The translations under genes and the position numbers were made by a program. Shown here piece by piece: positions 54,933 through 62,979 of a stretch of 64,000 nucleotides of DNA (position 1 is its first letter; every line of letters begins with the position of its first letter). Origin of the DNA: an uncultured Flavobacteriales bacterium (GTDB lineage: Bacteria; Bacteroidota; Bacteroidia; Flavobacteriales_G; Salibacteraceae); the NCBI GenBank assembly GCA_913020435.1, contig CAJVZZ010000001.1, positions 108,105-172,104 on the forward strand. The letters run 5' to 3'. A model generated the notes under the pieces. That model made no database searches. It was not told where the DNA came from and saw only the letters and a list, made by a program, of their open reading frames with translations.

Positions 54933-56162
54933 TTAATAACGCATTATGTTGTCTCCCAGTTTAATGAAATACAACGCTTGATTTTGTTGACTCATATAAA
55001 TATTCAATACATACAATCCAGGTGAAAGGTATTCCAGGGTTAATTCATCAATAGAGACATTATCATAAATTTTTTCTCCAATAGAGTTTATTAAAGTGAA
55101 CCGTTCAGTGCCAACAGCACCTTCAATATTCAATTGACCATGAGTTGGATTTGGGTAAATTCTATAGTTTAATGTATGTTGTTCTTTTATGCCTAAAATA
55201 TTTGAACATGAAGCATGAATGGAGTCTTTTGAGAAGAAGTCAGTGCAATTATCACAAATAATACTTCTGAAAAAGCAGCTTGCACGTGAGGCTCGGAATA
55301 CCGTTCCAGAAGTGCTAAAGTAGATCCCATGTCCTCCTTGATTGTCAACTGTAAAGTCAGTACAAATTGTATTCTGTGATAGTAGGTAATGAATCGATCG
55401 TGATCCTAATAACAATGTTGCTGAGTCTATTGTAACGATAGAGTCTAACAACCCATGAAAAGCTATTTGTGGAAGTAATTCATCGATTTTAATCGATTGT
55501 TTTGGAACAGCACCCCAGTTGTTGAAAATAGCTTGAATAGTGAAGGAATTGGTCAATTTATTCGAAGAAGTATCTAAACTACCAAGTGCTCCCTCAATTC
55601 CAGGGTAAATGGATTCCCATGCTCTATGGTCAGAATATGCAACATTATTGGCTGTAACGGCACCTGCACTAGTTCCACCAATAAATATCCAGTTAGGATC
55701 TACCTGATAAATACTTTGATTATTGATAAGATACCTAAGAGCAGCATTTGCATCTTGCTGTGCGCGGTACATCGCCAATAATTGACCATTGGTATTTATA
55801 CTGCTCCAACCTAATCGATAACTGATACTTACGGCTATAAAACCACGTTTTGCAAAAGCAATACATTCTCCCCTTCGTTGTATTTTATTTCCAGAATGGA
55901 ATCCACCACCATGAATCATTAAAACCAATGGCTTTTTTGTCAAGGAATCAACTAGAGGATTGGGATAATACACATCAAAAAGCAAGGTTTCTTTATTTCC
56001 TTGATAATTGAAAGCCGACCCGTAGGTAACATCTTTCAGTATACTAATTTCAGAATTACTAAAATATTCAACTTCAGTAAATCGATCTCCGAGATTACAA
56101 TATTGAGCAGAAACTATACTGTTTAAAAGTAGAAAAAGAAACGTTGATATTGACTTGATCAT
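54933..56162 (-). CDS. Alpha/beta-hydrolase (carboxylesterase/lipase-type) with T9SS C-terminal sorting domain
   Basis: Oxyanion HGGGF, nucleophile elbow GGTSAGA (GxSxG), a signal peptide and a CTD (YRIYPNPTHGQLNIEG...GLYVLNIYM). Confidence 0.7.
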   Translation of the reverse strand: MIKSISTFLFLLLNSIVSAQYCNLGDRFTEVEYFSNSEISILKDVTYGSAFNYQGNKETLLFDVYYPNPLVDSLTKKPLVLMIHGGGFHSGNKIQRRGECIAFAKRGFIAVSISYRLGWSSINTNGQLLAMYRAQQDANAALRYLINNQSIYQVDPNWIFIGGTSAGAVTANNVAYSDHRAWESIYPGIEGALGSLDTSSNKLTNSFTIQAIFNNWGAVPKQSIKIDELLPQIAFHGLLDSIVTIDSATLLLGSRSIHYLLSQNTICTDFTVDNQGGHGIYFSTSGTVFRASRASCFFRSIICDNCTDFFSKDSIHASCSNILGIKEQHTLNYRIYPNPTHGQLNIEGAVGTERFTLINSIGEKIYDNVSIDELTLEYLSPGLYVLNIYMSQQNQALYFIKLGDNIMRY

Positions 56163-56192
56163 TTTTACTTAGATAAAGCTAGAGAAAGGAGA

Positions 56193-57224
56193 TTACTCTT
56201 GCACTATCCTAAATCCGAAATGATTGTTTCCTCTATTTTCAAAATCAGACGCTCTCGCATAAGTTAATAAAGTGGCAGAATGGTAGTTCCAAGAACCTCC
56301 ACGTCTTACTCTTTTAGAATCTGTTCCAGAAGCAGTATTAAGCGGGTCAGAACTAACAGAATAGAATGAAGCATCGTAATAGTCTAGACACCATTCCCAT
56401 ACATTTCCCCCCATATCATATAAACCGTATGGATTCGCAGCATAAGAACCAACTTTAACTGAATGCCCGTCTGCATCATGAACTCCTGGAGTATCTCCAT
56501 TATAGTTTGCTTTGGTATCCGATATAGTTCCGTCGTCTGTAGGATATTCAAATTTTTCCCCACCTCTTGCAGCATATTCCCACTGTGCTTCTGTAGGTAG
56601 TTTTACAGCATAATATTCAGTAAATGCAAAGGCACCATACCATTTTACCCAGTTCACTGGCCAATCTGATTTTTCTGAGTCAAGTAACTCAAAAGTACTA
56701 TTGGAGCTGTTAAATGAAATCCAGCTTTTATTGTCAATATGTTCTGCAGATCCGTCACTGGTGCAACCTCCTGTTTCTCCCAATTGTAAGAATACTTGTC
56801 CTGAATTTGGTGCATCACCAGCTCCTATAACCATGTTTTCGGTAGATGTTCCACAAGGATCTGTTGCTGACTGCGCTGAGACAGTAATCCAGCCATCAGC
56901 ATATGCCTTATTTAAGAAGTCAATATATTCCTGATTGGTAATTTCCTTTACCGATATTTTAAATGCTTTAAGTGTTACTTCAACAGTTGGCGCATCTGAG
57001 GCTTGAGTAGAGCCTCCCATAGCGAAAGTTCCTGCTGGAATATCTTTTAAAATAATTCTTGTCGGGAGTTCGGAGTCTCCAGTTGTTGCTTCAGTAGTGG
57101 TAACTGTGGTAACTGTAGTTGCAGCTTCAGGCTCAACTTCTTCTTCCTTTTTACAAGAAACGAAAATTAGTAATGCACAGATTGTAATAGTGATAGGTGA
57201 GAATGTTTTCATAATCTTAAACAT
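56193..57224 (-). CDS. FGE-sulfatase (SUMF1) fold lipoprotein lacking the FGE catalytic cysteine pair
   Basis: Lipobox (IFVSCKKEEE), a Thr-rich linker, and FGE-fold blocks (GGNVWEWCLDYY, RVRRGGSWNY). The segment after GGSW reads NYHSATLLTYARAS and has no Cys, so it is probably not a true formylglycine-generating enzyme. Confidence 0.7.
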   Translation of the reverse strand: MFKIMKTFSPITITICALLIFVSCKKEEEVEPEAATTVTTVTTTEATTGDSELPTRIILKDIPAGTFAMGGSTQASDAPTVEVTLKAFKISVKEITNQEYIDFLNKAYADGWITVSAQSATDPCGTSTENMVIGAGDAPNSGQVFLQLGETGGCTSDGSAEHIDNKSWISFNSSNSTFELLDSEKSDWPVNWVKWYGAFAFTEYYAVKLPTEAQWEYAARGGEKFEYPTDDGTISDTKANYNGDTPGVHDADGHSVKVGSYAANPYGLYDMGGNVWEWCLDYYDASFYSVSSDPLNTASGTDSKRVRRGGSWNYHSATLLTYARASDFENRGNNHFGFRIVQE

Positions 57225-58400: not shown

Positions 58401-58440
58401 GGCAAAAAAAAGCCCTTTAAGGTTTCTCTAAAAGGGCTTT
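58401..58440 (-). terminator. Rho-independent terminator downstream of the YHYH gene
   Basis: The minus strand reads AAAGCCCTTT-12 nt loop-AAAGGGCTTT followed by T8. It begins about 24 nt after the stop at 58464. Confidence 0.7.
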
Positions 58441-58463
58441 TACATTTATGTTGTGGAAGGCTA

Positions 58464-59837
58464 TTACTTCTGAATAACGACTTTTTGAGTGGTTACAGCT
58501 GTGCCAGAATTAATACGCAATACGTAAGTTCCGTTGTACAGGGTTTGTGTGTCTATATACCAAATGGTAGATCCTTGTTTTATTTGAGAAGAACGTACAA
58601 CCGAACCCTCCATATCAATCAAGTCAATATTTATATTTGATTTTACTAGTCCTCCAGCTTGAATAGCAATAAAATTTTGAGCAGGATTTGGAAATACACT
58701 AAAGCTTGGAATTACTGAATTAATATTAATCGAAGTAGTGGTGTCTGTATTATCAGTTACCTCTGTCGAATAAACGTCAGTAGTTTCTGTCACAGCATTC
58801 ACTTTAGAGGCAGTTACATTGCCATAAAAGGTGGGTCCAACAGCATATGGATATGAAGAGTTCCAATTAGCATCAACGGTTGCGAAATAAGCATAAATGC
58901 CATTAGGATATTCTGGAGTAACAGAAAACCGTCCGTTATGCTGATCTAAATCTCCGTTTGCTGAGTTGTATTCGTAATCTTCGCGGTAGTGACCAATTGG
59001 ATATCTAACATTTACGGCAGGACCATCAGTTACATTAGAACCATCTGAATAATGGGTTCGGACGGCAATACTTCTCAATTTATAAGAAGATTCTATTCTT
59101 GCAACTCCACCAGTACCGTCAACATTTGCATAGCCATATGCACCATATATGGGAAAGCCGTCGTATGCAAAACCAATAAGTGGAGAATGACTATTTGCAT
59201 CGATAGCGTATAAACCATCGGCGTCATAAAGGTTACAAATATTAGATATTACGTTTTTATCCAATTTAAATGCTGAAGGGTTTTGGTGATGGTGATAGTT
59301 ACCTCTTGCAGGGTGACCTTTTGAGCAATCAAAACCATCCATTTCTGCTGGTACGGCATCTCTGTTCCAAACACCATCGCCTCGACCGCCAACGGGTCCA
59401 CCTTGATCTGTTGCAGCGCTTAGGCTATACGACACCCCATCTCTGTAGTCAAAAAGAGCAACACCATTAATGAAAACACCTATGTTACCTCCATTTGTTG
59501 AAGTAGATGTACCCATATTCTGAGCTGGGTTCAATGGGAATTTGAAAATTGCATTTTGAGCAGTTGCAAAAGATGGGTTTCTATCTAAAAATGGACCTGT
59601 AGCATATGCTGGAATTCCATTAGTATGGACATAAACACTACTAGCGGAGTATTCTACCTTTTGAACGTTGGCTAAATCATTATCTTGAATTACTGTAGAA
59701 TTCCCAGACACGTAATGGCTACCTTTTATACTGTCATTTTGTAACCATTCAAGGATTGCAGGGTTTGTTTGAGCAAAAAGAAGATTGCCCATTAAAGTGA
59801 TTGTGGTAAAGAATAGTATTTTTTTCATGGTGTTCAT
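58464..59837 (-). CDS. YHYH-domain secreted protein with T9SS C-terminal sorting domain
   Basis: Signal peptide, a YHYH-type motif region (DCSKGHPARGNYHHHQNP) and a T9SS CTD (FSVFPNPAQNFIAIQ...GTYVLRINSGTAVTTQKVVIQK). Confidence 0.65.
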   Translation of the reverse strand: MNTMKKILFFTTITLMGNLLFAQTNPAILEWLQNDSIKGSHYVSGNSTVIQDNDLANVQKVEYSASSVYVHTNGIPAYATGPFLDRNPSFATAQNAIFKFPLNPAQNMGTSTSTNGGNIGVFINGVALFDYRDGVSYSLSAATDQGGPVGGRGDGVWNRDAVPAEMDGFDCSKGHPARGNYHHHQNPSAFKLDKNVISNICNLYDADGLYAIDANSHSPLIGFAYDGFPIYGAYGYANVDGTGGVARIESSYKLRSIAVRTHYSDGSNVTDGPAVNVRYPIGHYREDYEYNSANGDLDQHNGRFSVTPEYPNGIYAYFATVDANWNSSYPYAVGPTFYGNVTASKVNAVTETTDVYSTEVTDNTDTTTSININSVIPSFSVFPNPAQNFIAIQAGGLVKSNINIDLIDMEGSVVRSSQIKQGSTIWYIDTQTLYNGTYVLRINSGTAVTTQKVVIQK

Positions 59838-59888
59838 TGTTTTCCTAATAGACGCTTTGTATTTTTAATTCCTTCTGTCCTTATCAAA

Positions 59889-60905
59889 TTAGTTTCTTGG
59901 GAATCCATAGTCTGGGTTAAACAGAAATTCCCTGTCGGATAAAGTGAGTAGAAATGCAATTAGATCCACCTTTTCATGTTCAGTGATTTGAATAACGGGT
60001 TTGTTCTGCTGGTTTATAACATTTAATTCCTGATCAGCTCGGTAATGATTGAGCACTTCGTTCAAATTGTTGTAGCGACCATCGTGCATATATGGAAAGG
60101 AATATTGAATGTTTCTTAGTGTTGGAACTTTAAATTTGAATAAATCTTTACTCATTCGAGTAACCTGATATCTTCCTGAATCTCTGAGATTTGCATCTGG
60201 TTGCAGTCCGTTGTTCTCGAATTCAGTAGTTGTAAATAAAGGCTCTTTATGGCAGCCGTTGCAATTTTGCTGAAACAACTTATAGCCATTTGCTTCTTGT
60301 TCAGTAAACTTCAAAACACCCGCTTTTACTTTATCGTATTTAGAGTTTGCAGAAACTAGCGTTAATTGAAACTGGGCAAGGGCTAATAATAGTTGTTTCG
60401 AAGTTATTTTTTCTTCACCAAAAGCAGTTTTAAAAAGTGCAGGATAGACATCATGTTCATTAAGCTTTGGAAGCAAAGTAACTAAGTCGTTTCCCATTTC
60501 GGAAGCATGAGAAATAGGAGCAAGGGCCTGAACTTCAATATTATTTACTGCGCCATCCCACATAAATAGTTTGTTCCAAGCTAAATTTATAAGTACCGGA
60601 GCGTTTCGAGTTCCAATACTATCGTTGATTCCATGACTCAGCGCATGATCAACATGGGTAAATGCAGTAAAAGAAAGATGACAACTGGCACACGATACCA
60701 TATCATTTCGTGATAAAATAGGGTCGTAGAAAAGCTTCCGCCCTAACTTTACACGCTCTTTGTACAAAGGTTTTTTCTCAAAATCGTAATTCGGTTTTGG
60801 CCAATTTGATGGATACTTTATCTCGATTTTAGTTTGGCTCAATTCGGCTGCTCCAAATCCAAATAGAAAAATTGAAGGCAAGAGAATGAGTATCCATCTA
60901 TTCAT
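59889..60905 (-). CDS. Di-haem cytochrome c peroxidase (MauG/MbnH-like)
   Basis: Two CxxCH haem-binding motifs (CASCH, CNGCH) at the spacing typical of bacterial CCP/MauG enzymes. Signal peptide. The start overlaps the upstream gene by 8 nt. Confidence 0.8.
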   Translation of the reverse strand: MNRWILILLPSIFLFGFGAAELSQTKIEIKYPSNWPKPNYDFEKKPLYKERVKLGRKLFYDPILSRNDMVSCASCHLSFTAFTHVDHALSHGINDSIGTRNAPVLINLAWNKLFMWDGAVNNIEVQALAPISHASEMGNDLVTLLPKLNEHDVYPALFKTAFGEEKITSKQLLLALAQFQLTLVSANSKYDKVKAGVLKFTEQEANGYKLFQQNCNGCHKEPLFTTTEFENNGLQPDANLRDSGRYQVTRMSKDLFKFKVPTLRNIQYSFPYMHDGRYNNLNEVLNHYRADQELNVINQQNKPVIQITEHEKVDLIAFLLTLSDREFLFNPDYGFPRN

Positions 60906-61578
60906 TTTCTAAGGAGAAAATAGGAACAAGTAATTCGGAAAGTAGTTTAGCATTTTTTCCTGGAGACATTATGTTGTCTGGTAATTCTGCCGGTATACTT
61001 TTTAGGAACTTCTCAAGGTCAATTAAAACTACAATTTTTTTGGAAGTCAAAATATCTAATCGAATTTCTTGAACGGTTTCAAAAGGGTTTAAATAGCCGC
61101 CTAAATGATATTGAAATTCTCGATTCCCATTTTCAGTAGCATAAAAACCTTCCAGTTTAAAATTTATGTACCCACTTTGCCATGTCCAATACATGCCGAG
61201 AGTAGGGTCTAAGTCACCGCCATATGCTCCTGAAACATTAGTAATACTGTCAACTCCAAGTTTAAATCGAAAATCGTTTACTAATAATTCCTCTTGAAAT
61301 TCTAGCTGCAATTTTGTTGATTCGGGCTTAGCCAAGTCTATAAGATGATAGCTGCTGTCGGTTTTAACTTTTTGTTTTTTGTGATTAACTAGATGCAATG
61401 CTCCTGCATAGAATTTGAGATTAGAAATAACAACTTCGTTGCTATTAACAGTATACAAATCCGCTGAATCTAAAAACAGTTTTTGACCATTTAGAATTGG
61501 TTTGAATTCTATTGTATACTGGCAATTGGCTGAGCAGTGCAACAGGCATAAACCGATAGTAATTAGGAAATTATTCAA
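60898..61578 (-). CDS. MbnP-like periplasmic partner protein (tentative)
   Basis: 226-aa secreted beta-rich protein translationally coupled to the di-haem peroxidase. Blocks LKFYAGALHL, YHLIDLA and LGMYWTWQSGYINFKLEG resemble MbnP family proteins as I recall them. It lacks the four-Cys pattern of the originally described family. TTG start. Confidence 0.45.
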   Translation of the reverse strand: MNNFLITIGLCLLHCSANCQYTIEFKPILNGQKLFLDSADLYTVNSNEVVISNLKFYAGALHLVNHKKQKVKTDSSYHLIDLAKPESTKLQLEFQEELLVNDFRFKLGVDSITNVSGAYGGDLDPTLGMYWTWQSGYINFKLEGFYATENGNREFQYHLGGYLNPFETVQEIRLDILTSKKIVVLIDLEKFLKSIPAELPDNIMSPGKNAKLLSELLVPIFSLENE

Positions 61579-61780
61579 GACTTTAAAATTAGGATATTTA
61601 AGTTTGAAAATAGAAGACCAATAATTACTTCAGTTAATTAACGTCCAAATTTGAAAACTTCCTTTTCATTAAGATATCACTTCCAAATTGAATAGGGTAA
61701 ACTCTAAAGGTGAGGTATGGCTTCTTATACGAGCGAAAAGGATCTATATGCTTGAACGAATTAAAACAAATGAACTTACC

Positions 61781-62320
61781 TTATCCAATCATATAATTAT
61801 TCAACTCATCAATCATTCCTGCTAATAAATCTTTATTCTCTGGATCGTCCATTATTGCATCCTTAAGTTGAGTATTTACCTCTACAATTTCCTCATCTGT
61901 GGGTGCATTTTTAAAGGACTCTACAATAGTCAAACACTCTAGGGTTACCATGTAATCTGACTTGATTGCTAGGTTCACAATTTCATCTAAATATGGAAGT
62001 GCATCTAACCTAGATTGCCAGAATGTCTGCAGAATAAAAACACGAATTCCTTCATACTTTTCATCGTTTAAAGCATCTATCAGTGGCCTAGCAGCATCTT
62101 GGTCCTTAAGGTCGTTAAGTAAGCTAACTACTGTACTAAAAACAGTGTCGTTTTCAGTGGCGGATAACAAATCCAATAAAGGAACGATTAACTGAGGGTG
62201 ACCGTTTTCGCGTAGTTTTTTTATGGCTTTAACTGTTTTTTCCTCGTCGTTCGAAGCGAACACTTTTCTTAATGTTTCTTCCTGTTTTGCTAATTGCACC
62301 TTTGATTTTACCACTTTCAT
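61781..62320 (-). CDS. HEAT-repeat-like hypothetical protein
   Basis: 179-aa all-helical ORF with repeated A..AL..L...D.. patterns (AIKKLRENGHPQLIVPLLDLL, AARPLIDALND). Confidence 0.45.
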   Translation of the reverse strand: MKVVKSKVQLAKQEETLRKVFASNDEEKTVKAIKKLRENGHPQLIVPLLDLLSATENDTVFSTVVSLLNDLKDQDAARPLIDALNDEKYEGIRVFILQTFWQSRLDALPYLDEIVNLAIKSDYMVTLECLTIVESFKNAPTDEEIVEVNTQLKDAIMDDPENKDLLAGMIDELNNYMIG

Positions 62321-62979
62321 TAATTATAATTTCTTGAACCAAAAATTGCACTTCCTATACGCACCATATTACTGCCACAAACCATGGCCATAGGATAATC
62401 TCCACTCATACCCATACTTAGTTGTATGAGATTCGAGTTCAATGCTTTTTGTTCGTCAAAAAAGGTTTTGAGTATTGTGAATTCTTCTCTAATTTGTTCT
62501 TGATCTTCTGTGTTAGAGGCCATTCCCATAAGGCCAACAACTCTTACGTTTGGAAATTCGTCAGCTTTCAATGCTGCGAGTAAATCCGTTGCTTCAGGAT
62601 AGGGCAGACCAAATTTGGTTTCTTCCTTTGCTATTCGCAATTGAACCAAAATGTTTATTGTTCTTTCGCATTGGCCTGCTCTTTTCTGAATTTCTTTTGT
62701 CAGTTTTCGACTGTCAACAGCATGAATCAGATTTACAAATGGAGCGATGTATTTTACTTTGTTGGTTTGGAGATGTCCGATTAAATGCCAGTTGATATCT
62801 TGCGGAAGAGCTTCGTATTTATCGCAAAGTTCTTGAACTTTATTTTCACCGAAATCACGATGTCCAATTTCATAAGCTTCTTGAATTGATTCAATAGGCT
62901 TAGTTTTAGAAACTGCTACTAGGGTTACTCGCGTGCTAAGGCTCTTCTGTATTTTTTTGAGGTTATCTGAAATGCTCAT
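62320..62979 (-). CDS. yggS: YggS family pyridoxal-phosphate homeostasis protein
   Basis: LVAVSKTKP (PLP lysine) and RDFGENKVQE motifs. 219 aa. Confidence 0.85.
   Translation of the reverse strand: MSISDNLKKIQKSLSTRVTLVAVSKTKPIESIQEAYEIGHRDFGENKVQELCDKYEALPQDINWHLIGHLQTNKVKYIAPFVNLIHAVDSRKLTKEIQKRAGQCERTINILVQLRIAKEETKFGLPYPEATDLLAALKADEFPNVRVVGLMGMASNTEDQEQIREEFTILKTFFDEQKALNSNLIQLSMGMSGDYPMAMVCGSNMVRIGSAIFGSRNYN

What the first reader, a model, noticed from the sequence alone, without database searches (positions are those of the whole stretch)
58464..61578. MbnP-like / di-haem peroxidase pair coupled to a T9SS-exported YHYH protein
Seen in sequence: three co-directional genes.
- A 226-aa secreted beta-rich protein.
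- An 8-nt overlap into a di-haem cytochrome c peroxidase (CASCH, CNGCH).
- Then, 51 nt further on, a 457-aa protein with a YHYH-type His-rich motif (GHPARGNYHHHQNP) and a T9SS sorting domain, ending in a strong terminator.

From memory, MbnH (a MauG-like di-haem enzyme) oxidises a tryptophan of its partner MbnP to kynurenine, which creates a copper site. The pair was earlier called a metallo-mystery pair, and its role outside methanobactin operons remains unclear.

The partner here lacks the four-Cys signature but keeps Trp-rich blocks (LGMYWTWQSGYINFKLEG). I see no TonB-dependent transporter adjacent.

Linking such a pair to a cell-surface YHYH protein suggests an extracytoplasmic metal-handling or protein-cofactor-maturation system. 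I cannot match it to anything characterised.
Basis: partly seen in the sequence, partly recalled or inferred. Interest (0 to 1): 0.65.

Follow-up and report, generated by a model that had tools for sequence, protein, structure and literature searches.

The report
MbnP–MbnH copper pair with exported YHYH
A marine Flavobacteriales genome carries a three-gene module, kept together in most of the 84 related Bacteroidota loci examined, that joins a copper-site protein (MbnP-like) and the haem enzyme that matures it (MbnH-like) to a very conserved secreted histidine-rich protein of unknown function (YHYH), giving that orphan family a testable link to metal handling.

Summary
Three co-directional minus-strand genes encode:
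- a 226-aa MbnP-family protein (Pfam E=1.6e-37; predicted fold matches only PDB 7L6G);
- a 338-aa di-haem enzyme of the MauG/MbnH type;
- a 457-aa YHYH protein with a T9SS sorting domain and a strong terminator.

In the di-haem enzyme, invariant Tyr288 sits where ordinary peroxidases have the Met haem ligand. The best solved match is MbnH, 6E1C.

The linkage is not chance. In 63 of 76 informative loci found through YHYH, the pair lies within 6 kb, and in 54 it is directly adjacent. All 4 loci found through MbnP have MbnH and YHYH alongside.

New for this window: the 51-nt MbnH–YHYH gap holds the window's only strong match to an ECF-type promoter (GAAGGAAT-N13-CGTCTAT). That motif recurs before YHYH and other module genes in relatives. 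No sigma gene is nearby, so YHYH probably has its own stress-responsive promoter. Marine RNA assemblies cover YHYH, but none bridges the gap.

The function is inferred: a periplasmic kynurenine–copper MbnP working with an exported metalloprotein. I found no paper describing the trio.

The parts
60898..61578 (-). MbnP-like gene (226 aa, TTG start, signal peptide). It keeps the WxW motif (W131-T-W133) and invariant H158, with M129 nearly invariant. The mature protein has no Cys.
   Evidence: ORF. (PF20243, E=1.6e-37). (TIGR04052, only 28.8 bits against a cut-off of 140). (50-sequence alignment, invariant columns). (AF2 pLDDT 88.5; Foldseek hits only the 7L6G chains, E about 4e-9, TMq 0.56-0.67).
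59889..60905 (-). MbnH-like di-haem enzyme of the MauG type (338 aa, signal peptide). It has two CxxCH motifs, inter-haem Trp116, and invariant Tyr288 at the E-haem distal ligand position. It overlaps the MbnP-like gene by 8 nt.
   Evidence: (best NCBIfam match TIGR04039 MbnH, 205.6 bits, below its 362.85 cut-off; MauG 178 bits). (invariant columns). (profile against PDB: 6E1C is best at 3e-56; Y288 aligns with a Tyr of 6E1C and with Met258 of 1IQC). (the P-H junction overlaps or lies within 2 nt in 57 of 57 loci).
59848..59875 (-). ECF-type promoter motif GAAGGAAT-N13-CGTCTAT in the MbnH-YHYH gap. The -35 box is at 59875-59868 and the -10 box at 59854-59848. I place the transcription start near 59841, assuming it lies a few nt downstream of the -10 box. 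That would favour the second ATG (59828, 'MKKILFF...') as the real YHYH start.
   Evidence: read directly in the sequence. (motif derived from 84 loci; spacer is 13 nt in 33 of 43 instances). (score 21.2, the only hit above 15.3 on either strand of the 64-kb window; in the loci 59 of 63 hits at or above 17 are co-oriented with the module). (CGTCTA lies before YHYH in 18 of 80 loci against about 1.6 expected).
58464..59837 (-). YHYH protein gene (457 aa). It has a signal peptide with invariant Gln23 just after the likely cleavage site. The YHYH domain is aa 98-326 (nt 59546-58860), with invariant H175, Y181-H182-H183-H184, H217, D170, C171, C201, D226, E286, D287 and D298. The T9SS type-A C-terminal domain is aa 381-455 (nt 58697-58473).
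   Evidence: (66 sequences, mean column identity 66%). (Foldseek matches only T9SS CTDs 8qb1 and 8glk_D). (RNA contigs at 99% identity or more cover 58412-59831 in three metatranscriptome runs).
58403..58441 (-). Intrinsic terminator after YHYH (AAAAGCCCUUU...AAAGGGCUUUUUUUU).
   Evidence: sequence. (-15.2 kcal/mol, z = -3.16). One RNA contig ends at 58412, inside the terminator.
61579..61780 (-). Upstream intergenic region, presumed to hold the promoter of the MbnP-MbnH pair. It has no match to the ECF-type motif.
   Evidence: sequence. (no motif hit at or above 12 here). (sigma-70-type consensus hits are no more frequent than in shuffled sequence).

Best explanation
This is the minimal, three-gene form of a conserved Bacteroidota envelope module.

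Shown by sequence and comparison:
- a periplasmic MbnP-family protein;
- a translationally coupled MauG/MbnH-type di-haem enzyme;
- a T9SS-exported YHYH protein.

They are kept together across families and orders of Bacteroidota.

Inferred by homology with Methylosinus MbnP/MbnH:
- The di-haem enzyme uses H2O2 to reach a high-valent state.
- It oxidises one Trp of the invariant WxW motif (W131 or W133) of the MbnP-like protein to kynurenine.
- Kynurenine, together with His158 and Met129, then forms a copper site.

Inferred from linkage:
- YHYH is a metalloprotein with an invariant His cluster (H175, H182-184, H217).
- It folds in the periplasm before T9SS export.
- It depends on the matured MbnP, most likely for copper delivery or exchange while it crosses the periplasm.

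In this window YHYH is additionally driven by its own ECF-sigma-type promoter in the 51-nt gap. The cognate sigma factor is encoded elsewhere in the genome.
For: Identity of the pair:
- Pfam MbnP at 129.7 bits.
- The fold matches only 7L6G.
- WxW and H158 are invariant, and M129 is at least 90% conserved, in 50 orthologues.
- The best solved match of the di-haem profile is MbnH 6E1C, end to end.
- Invariant Y288 replaces the Met ligand of canonical CCPs (ligand rule from PMC11892367).
- The P-H genes overlap or abut in 57 of 57 loci.

Known chemistry: MbnH-dependent Kyn174 lies in the WxW motif of MbnP and forms a His/Met/Kyn copper site (review PMC11951088). Deleting mbnP or mbnH leaves copper-bound methanobactin in the medium (PMC13729199).

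Linkage to YHYH:
- 63 of 76 informative YHYH loci carry the pair within 6 kb.
- 54 are directly adjacent, in either order.
- 9 of 48 H-Y junctions are 10 nt or less, or overlap.
- 4 of 4 loci fetched through MbnP-like proteins have MbnH and YHYH+T9SS next door.

Copper context: T9SS multicopper oxidase genes lie in or beside the module in 9 loci, and AhpC/TSA redoxins in 12 or more.

Regulation: the same GAAGGATT-N13-CGTCTAA motif precedes YHYH, MbnP, anti-sigma and inserted cargo genes. 59 of 63 strong hits are co-oriented with the module, and the motif occurs once in this window, before YHYH.

Expression: YHYH is present in marine metatranscriptome assemblies of three studies.
Against: - No chemistry was tested. 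Kynurenine formation, copper binding and any MbnP-YHYH contact are all inferences.
- The MbnP-like protein is distant from the characterised one: 16% identity, no HMMER hit to 7L6G even with a profile, below the NCBIfam equivalog cut-off, about 60 residues shorter, and without the Cys residues. I could not map His158 and Met129 onto the 7L6G ligands.
- Published predictions for YHYH favour a Zn site and hydrolase activity (PMC7824862; bioRxiv 10.64898/2026.10.18.759936), not copper.
- 13 of 76 YHYH loci lack the pair nearby.
- In this window YHYH has its own promoter, and no RNA contig bridges the gap. Co-regulation with the pair here is therefore not shown.
- The YHYH model is weak around the His motif, with pLDDT below 50.
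Confidence: 0.55

Rival explanations
1. Shared regulon only. MbnP/MbnH and YHYH are independent members of one ECF-controlled envelope-stress or metal-stress response, together with multicopper oxidase, redoxins, sulfatase and arylsulfotransferase. They sit together because they are switched on together, not because one acts on the other.
For: - The same promoter motif precedes several unrelated cargo genes in the loci.
- YHYH keeps the motif even in loci without the pair: L002, L034, L041, L056 and L078.
- YHYH has its own promoter here.
- RNA coverage of YHYH and of the pair differs.
Against: - Only the three genes are kept throughout. Accessory genes occur in at most about a quarter of the loci.
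- H-Y junctions of 10 nt or less, or overlapping, in 9 loci indicate a single operon there.
- Gene order changes (Y-P-H in 5 loci) while adjacency is kept.
Confidence: 0.2
2. YHYH is a second client of the MauG-type enzyme. The di-haem protein installs a protein-derived cofactor or cross-link in YHYH as it passes through the periplasm, as MauG does for methylamine dehydrogenase. The MbnP-like protein would act as adaptor or copper donor.
For: - MauG-type enzymes act on folded partner proteins (PMC11951088).
- YHYH is extremely conserved, at 66% mean column identity against 33% for MbnP. It has invariant Trp157, many invariant Tyr, and the Cys171/Cys201 pair.
- The YHYH gene most often lies directly after the di-haem gene.
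Against: - The MbnP-like protein keeps the WxW target motif, which already accounts for the enzyme.
- No precedent exists, and no residue-level evidence was obtained. The model is poor in the relevant region.
Confidence: 0.1
3. YHYH is a secreted Zn-dependent hydrolase, as predicted for phage tail YHYH domains. Its job (for example cleaving a cell-wall or polymer substrate) has nothing to do with copper. The MbnP/MbnH pair serves general periplasmic copper homeostasis.
For: - A His triad plus Asp was predicted as a Zn site of a hydrolase (PMC7824862).
- A three-His Zn site was predicted from models (bioRxiv 10.64898/2026.10.18.759936).
- T9SS cargo are often hydrolases; an esterase with a T9SS tail lies 2.3 kb away.
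Against: - It does not explain adjacency that is conserved in both search directions.
- Neither prediction has been tested.
Confidence: 0.1
4. The di-haem protein is an ordinary periplasmic cytochrome c peroxidase that removes H2O2, and the two flanking genes are unrelated neighbours.
For: With the single sequence, the best PDB hits are canonical CCPs (3o5c at 1e-38, 1iqc at 8e-37).
Against: - Invariant Tyr288 replaces the Met E-haem ligand.
- With the family profile, MbnH 6E1C is the top hit and is aligned end to end.
- The best NCBIfam models are MbnH and MauG.
- The gene is translationally coupled to an MbnP-family gene in 57 of 57 loci.
Confidence: 0.03

Closest known systems
MbnP/MbnH of Methylosinus trichosporium OB3b (PDB 7L6G and 6E1C), the 'metallo-mystery pair' (NCBIfam TIGR04052 and TIGR04039)
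   Same: - A periplasmic beta-rich protein with a WxW motif is encoded next to, and translationally coupled with, a MauG-type di-haem enzyme.
- The fold matches 7L6G.
- The enzyme aligns with 6E1C end to end, with Tyr at the E-haem ligand position and the inter-haem Trp kept.
   Different: - No methanobactin genes and no TonB-dependent transporter are present.
- The MbnP-like protein is about 60 residues shorter, has no Cys in its mature part, and shares 16% identity. It scores below the NCBIfam equivalog cut-offs.
- The constant third partner is a T9SS-exported YHYH protein.
- Control is by an ECF-type promoter rather than the copper switch of methanotrophs.
MauG and pre-methylamine dehydrogenase (PDB 3L4M)
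   Same: A di-haem enzyme with His-Tyr ligation that oxidises Trp residues of a separate, folded partner protein in the periplasm.
   Different: The partner fold and the product differ: kynurenine in MbnP against a tryptophan tryptophylquinone cross-link. No amine dehydrogenase genes are present here.
YHYH domain family (Pfam PF14240)
   Same: A clear member at 192 bits, with the conserved His cluster. Here the motif reads YHHH.
   Different: - The family has no characterised member.
- Published ideas are a Zn hydrolase in phage tails (PMC7824862) and a 'blank-slate' three-His site (bioRxiv 10.64898/2026.10.18.759936).
- This subfamily carries a T9SS tail and is tied to MbnP/MbnH.
CnrYXH-type ECF sigma, mini anti-sigma and periplasmic metal-sensor circuits
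   Same: In about a quarter of the related loci, an ECF sigma gene, a gene for a roughly 95-aa membrane protein and a gene for a roughly 155-aa periplasmic protein precede the module. An ECF-type -35/-10 motif marks the regulated genes.
   Different: - None of these regulator genes lies in this 64-kb window; only the promoter motif is present.
- The similarity of the 155-aa protein to Spy and to heavy-metal-resistance proteins is below significance.

Membership tests
MbnP family (Pfam PF20243) | Match to the family model above the curated cut-off | tested here: met
   129.7 bits against a cut-off of 27, E=1.6e-37, covering residues 21-197 and profile positions 4-181 of 189.
MbnP family copper-binding protein (NCBIfam TIGR04052, equivalog) | Score above the equivalog cut-off | tested here: not met
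   28.8 bits against a cut-off of 140. It is a distant subfamily, not an equivalog of the methanotroph protein.
MbnP family | Conserved WxW motif that holds the Trp converted to kynurenine (PMC11951088) | tested here: met
   W131 and W133 are invariant in 50 orthologues (GMYWTWQSGY). H158 is invariant and M129 is at least 90% conserved. I could not align these residues with the 7L6G ligands by sequence.
MbnP family | Fold of the solved MbnP (7L6G) | tested here: met
   The AF2 model has pLDDT 88.5. Foldseek finds only the six 7L6G chains at E of 0.001 or less: E 4e-9 to 1e-8, probability 1.00, TMq 0.56-0.67.
   The mature window protein has no Cys. Most orthologues have one.
MbnP family | MbnH-dependent kynurenine formation and copper binding | not testable with these tools
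   This needs mass spectrometry and metal analysis.
MbnH / MauG-type di-haem enzymes | Two CxxCH haem motifs and the CCP_MauG domain | tested here: met
   C72-x2-C75-H76 and C215-x2-C218-H219 are invariant. PF03150 scores 173.7 bits.
MbnH / MauG-type di-haem enzymes | His-Tyr rather than His-Met ligation of the E haem (PMC11892367) | tested here: met
   Invariant Y288 aligns with Met258 of 1IQC and with a Tyr of MbnH 6E1C. This rests on alignment only.
MbnH family di-haem enzyme (NCBIfam TIGR04039) | Score above the family cut-off | tested here: not met
   205.6 bits against a cut-off of 362.85, although it is the best-scoring family.
MbnH / MauG-type di-haem enzymes | Formation of a bis-Fe(IV) state with H2O2 | not testable with these tools
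   This needs spectroscopy.
YHYH family (Pfam PF14240) | Match above the cut-off and the conserved His motif | tested here: met
   192.2 bits against a cut-off of 25. Y181-H182-H183-H184, H175 and H217 are invariant in 66 sequences.
T9SS type-A cargo | C-terminal sorting domain plus an N-terminal signal peptide | tested here: met
   PF18962 scores 50.6 bits and TIGR04183 scores 43.7 bits. The model's C-terminal domain matches the mirolase CTD 8qb1 and the T9SS-bound NucA CTD 8glk_D. Export itself was not tested.

The most novel reading that the evidence does not exclude
MbnP/MbnH is a periplasmic loading station for T9SS cargo. YHYH would be a previously unrecognised class of extracellular copper protein, or a protein with a MauG-installed cofactor. 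Its metallation or maturation would depend on kynurenine-bearing MbnP during transit through the periplasm, and an ECF sigma circuit would tune the supply.
Probability: 0.25. Interest if true: 0.8.

Novelty: new variant of a known kind. Interest (0 to 1): 0.6.

Why it matters
MbnP/MbnH pairs occur in many bacteria outside methanobactin operons, and their role there is open. YHYH (PF14240) is found in bacteria, phages and diatoms and has no characterised member or solved structure.

A conserved three-gene linkage, with a recognisable promoter and evidence of expression in the sea, makes both questions testable with simple experiments: co-expression, mass spectrometry and metal analysis. [quoted passage not shown]

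Tried and rejected
I could not look for the cognate ECF sigma factor, further YHYH or MbnP copies, or T9SS genes in the rest of this genome. I also could not run a family-wide presence/absence survey.
- HMMER against the PDB, with the single MbnP-like sequence and with its 50-sequence profile, found nothing at E of 10 or less. Ligand positions could therefore not be mapped onto 7L6G.
- The YHYH model was only moderate (pLDDT 66.9, below 50 around the His motif). The fold search matched only the T9SS tail, so it gives no clue to the YHYH fold.
- The key papers were not held: Manesis 2021 (PMC8201829), Manesis 2023 (PMC10083075), Kenney & Rosenzweig 2018 (PMC5880147) and Kenney 2019 (PMC6827288). 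I cannot exclude that their neighbourhood tables list YHYH.
- Rfam found nothing in the region.
- The sigma-70 consensus scan gave no more hits than shuffled sequence.
- A weak look-alike of the ECF motif upstream of the MbnP-like gene (AAGGAAGT...CGTTAA) did not reach a score of 12, so I dropped it.
- The roughly 155-aa accessory protein of related loci has only sub-threshold similarity to Spy and Metal_resist.
- No accessory gene of the relatives (sigma factor, multicopper oxidase, redoxin, sulfatase, arylsulfotransferase) occurs in the window. Only T9SS tails cross-match.
Full report
**1. Observation**

The three minus-strand ORFs are exactly as described:
- 61578..60898: 226 aa, TTG start.
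- 60905..59889: 338 aa, overlapping the first gene by 8 nt.
- 59837..58464: 457 aa, after a 51-nt gap.

The quoted motifs are all present: CASCH, CNGCH, GHPARGNYHHHQNP and LGMYWTWQSGYINFKLEG.

A hairpin with an 11-bp stem and a U8 tail follows the last gene. It folds at -15.2 kcal/mol, z = -3.2 against shuffles.

The flanking genes are unrelated to metals:
- Upstream: a HEAT-repeat protein and YggS.
- Downstream: a 115-aa protein, an FGE-domain lipoprotein and a T9SS esterase.

No TonB-dependent transporter is adjacent.

**2. What the three proteins are**

*First protein.* It is a member of Pfam MbnP (129.7 bits against a cut-off of 27). It is distant from the characterised protein:
- It scores 28.8 bits against the NCBIfam equivalog model, whose cut-off is 140.
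- HMMER finds no PDB relative, even with a 50-sequence profile.

The fold settles the matter. An AlphaFold2 model with pLDDT 88.5 matches only the six chains of MbnP 7L6G at E of 0.001 or less. The values are E about 4e-9, probability 1.00 and TMq 0.56-0.67.

Among 50 orthologues, W131 and W133 (the WxW motif), H158, D110 and D124 are invariant. M129 is at least 90% conserved.

In the Methylosinus protein the WxW motif holds the Trp that MbnH turns into kynurenine. The copper ligands there are His, Met, kynurenine and water (PMC11951088). The mature window protein has no Cys.

*Second protein.* It has two invariant CxxCH motifs and the inter-haem Trp (W116). With the single sequence, the best solved hits are canonical peroxidases. 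With the family profile, the best hit is MbnH 6E1C (3e-56), aligned end to end.

Invariant Y288 aligns with a Tyr of 6E1C and with Met258 of the Nitrosomonas peroxidase 1IQC. Canonical enzymes have His-Met ligation at that haem and MauG-type enzymes have His-Tyr (PMC11892367). So this is a MauG/MbnH-type enzyme, not an ordinary H2O2 scavenger.

*Third protein.* It is a clear YHYH-family member (192 bits) with a T9SS type-A sorting domain. The model's C-terminal domain matches solved T9SS CTDs.

It is far more conserved than its partners. Mean column identity is 66%, against 52% for the di-haem enzyme and 33% for the MbnP-like protein.

Invariant residues include H175, Y181-H182-H183-H184, H217, D170, C171, C201, D226, E286, D287 and D298. 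Gln23, just after the likely signal-peptide cleavage site, is also invariant.

The YHYH domain has no solved relative. My model was weak around the His motif.

**3. Is the linkage real?**

A scan of one genome per species returned 80 loci with YHYH orthologues at 57-94% identity. All are in Bacteroidota-type contigs: Flavobacteriales, Crocinitomicaceae, Schleiferiaceae, Saprospiraceae and Chitinophagales.

Of these, 76 have enough flank to judge. The counts below include two corrections that I made by hand to the script's output:

| Arrangement | Loci |
|---|---|
| MbnP and MbnH within 6 kb of YHYH | 63 (83%) |
| of these, P-H-Y directly adjacent | 49 |
| of these, Y-P-H directly adjacent | 5 |
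| of these, one to three genes inserted | 9 |
| Pair absent from the flanks | 13 |

The 13 loci without the pair fall in at least five separate places on the YHYH tree, nested among linked ones. One metagenome-assembled genome has both a linked and an unlinked paralogue (L003 and L002).

In the reverse direction, I fetched four loci through MbnP-like proteins at 39-44% identity. All four carry MbnH and YHYH+T9SS next door.

Junction spacing supports operon structure:
- The P-H junction overlaps or lies within 2 nt in 57 of 57 loci.
- 9 of 48 H-Y junctions are 10 nt or less, or overlap.

Only these three genes are kept throughout. Recurrent extras are:
- an ECF sigma gene with two small genes, in about 20 loci;
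- T9SS multicopper oxidase, in 9 loci;
- AhpC/TSA redoxins;
- T9SS sulfatase;
- T9SS arylsulfotransferase.

None of these extras is in this window. So the window holds the minimal form, as do its near-identical relative L001 and the more distant L081.

**4. Regulation**

The 51-nt gap reads ...GAAGGAATTAAAAATACAAAGCGTCTATTAGGAAAACAATG.

The hexamer CGTCTA lies just before YHYH in 18 of 80 loci, where about 1.6 are expected.

Iterative refinement on the 90 nt upstream of YHYH gave a two-box motif, GAAGGATT-N13-CGTCTAA. The spacer is 13 nt in 33 of 43 instances.

I scanned 1.8 Mb of loci (both strands counted) and found 63 hits at or above 17 bits:
- 29 lie within 70 nt upstream of YHYH.
- 30 of the other 34 are co-oriented with the module. 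Those I checked lie before MbnP, the gene after the sigma factor, or inserted cargo genes.
- Only 4 are on the opposite strand.

In the 64-kb window the single strong hit (21.2 bits; the next best is 15.3) is at 59875-59848 (-), in the gap. None lies upstream of the MbnP-like gene.

YHYH therefore very likely has its own ECF-type promoter here, with the sigma factor encoded elsewhere.

I place the start near 59841, assuming it lies a few nt downstream of the -10 box. That favours the second ATG (59828, MKKILFF...), which is where the orthologues begin.

**5. Expression**

Contigs from marine metatranscriptomes of three studies match the YHYH gene at 99% identity or more, from 58412 (inside the terminator) to 59831. 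One run has a contig in the 3' part of the di-haem gene (59882-60161). One run of uncertain RNA status has pieces of the MbnP-like gene.

No contig bridges the gap. This fits an internal promoter. At such low depth it neither proves one nor excludes read-through.

**6. Mechanism**

*Shown:* the family identities, the periplasmic and exported locations implied by the signals, the conserved linkage and the promoter motif.

*Inferred by homology:* the di-haem enzyme oxidises a WxW Trp of the MbnP-like protein to kynurenine, which creates a copper site.

Genetic work in methanotrophs now ties MbnPH to releasing copper from, or taking up, a copper carrier (PMC13729199).

*Inferred from linkage:* YHYH is a metalloprotein that folds in the periplasm before T9SS export and obtains or exchanges its metal, most likely copper, through MbnP. 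The multicopper oxidases inside the module in relatives support a copper theme.

The rivals are:
- shared regulation without biochemical coupling;
- YHYH as a second client of the MauG-type enzyme;
- YHYH as a Zn hydrolase, as predicted for phage versions (PMC7824862; bioRxiv 10.64898/2026.10.18.759936).

**7. Novelty**

The pair belongs to a known kind. The constant YHYH partner, the short Cys-free MbnP subfamily and the ECF-type control are not described in any paper I could search.

The two papers with MbnPH neighbourhood analyses were not available.

Earlier notes of this scan describe the same module, and the same promoter, in many other genomes. They are unchecked leads. The co-occurrence and the promoter were re-derived here from the sequences. 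Their report of a fused MbnP-MbnH beside YHYH in Verrucomicrobiota was not tested here.

**Verdict**

This is a new variant of a known kind, of moderate to high interest, and its function still has to be shown at the bench.

Noticed in passing
window 59889-60905 (-), residues 84-91 of the di-haem protein: An invariant His/Asp patch, H84-x-D86-H87-x2-S90-H91-G92, lies just after the first haem motif. It is conserved in all 56 orthologues but is absent from the aligned stretch of MbnH 6E1C. It could be a subfamily-specific metal or docking site, or a distal haem ligand.
   Followed up: partly
window 59828-59837 (-): The YHYH ORF has two in-frame ATGs (MNTMKK...). Orthologues start at MKK, and the predicted promoter leaves only about 3 nt before the first ATG. 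The real start is probably 59828, giving 454 aa.
   Followed up: partly
window 54933-57224 (-): Downstream neighbours are an FGE-sulfatase-domain lipoprotein (343 aa; weak, partial similarity to the T9SS ring protein GldK/PorK, 115 bits against a cut-off of 350) and an alpha/beta-hydrolase esterase with a T9SS sorting domain (409 aa).
   Followed up: no
window 61905-62400: An RNA contig of run X4 covers the HEAT-repeat/YggS genes upstream at about four to eight times the word depth of that run's contigs on YHYH and the di-haem gene. The neighbouring housekeeping operon therefore appears to be transcribed separately and more strongly.
   Followed up: no
L050:3499-4998 and L063:372-1871: In two related loci the MbnP-like ORF is 499 aa, about twice the usual length. 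This suggests an N-terminal fusion or extension.
   Followed up: no
L053:1400-4407; L025, L030, L059: L053 has a second di-haem gene (398 aa) directly before the MbnP-MbnH pair. L025, L030 and L059 carry two YHYH paralogues in tandem.
   Followed up: no
L037, L041, L026, L080 (record titles): Several MAG records that hold this Bacteroidota-type module are titled Hydrocarboniphaga, Vulcanococcus or Chitinophaga pinensis. These are probably binning or labelling errors in the public records.
   Followed up: no
L082:5233, L083:5234: In loci with the ECF sigma gene, the promoter motif sits at the very end of the sigma gene, in front of the small membrane-protein gene. I did not systematically test how often it also precedes the sigma gene itself (CGTCTA lies upstream of it in 6 of 20 loci).
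   Followed up: partly
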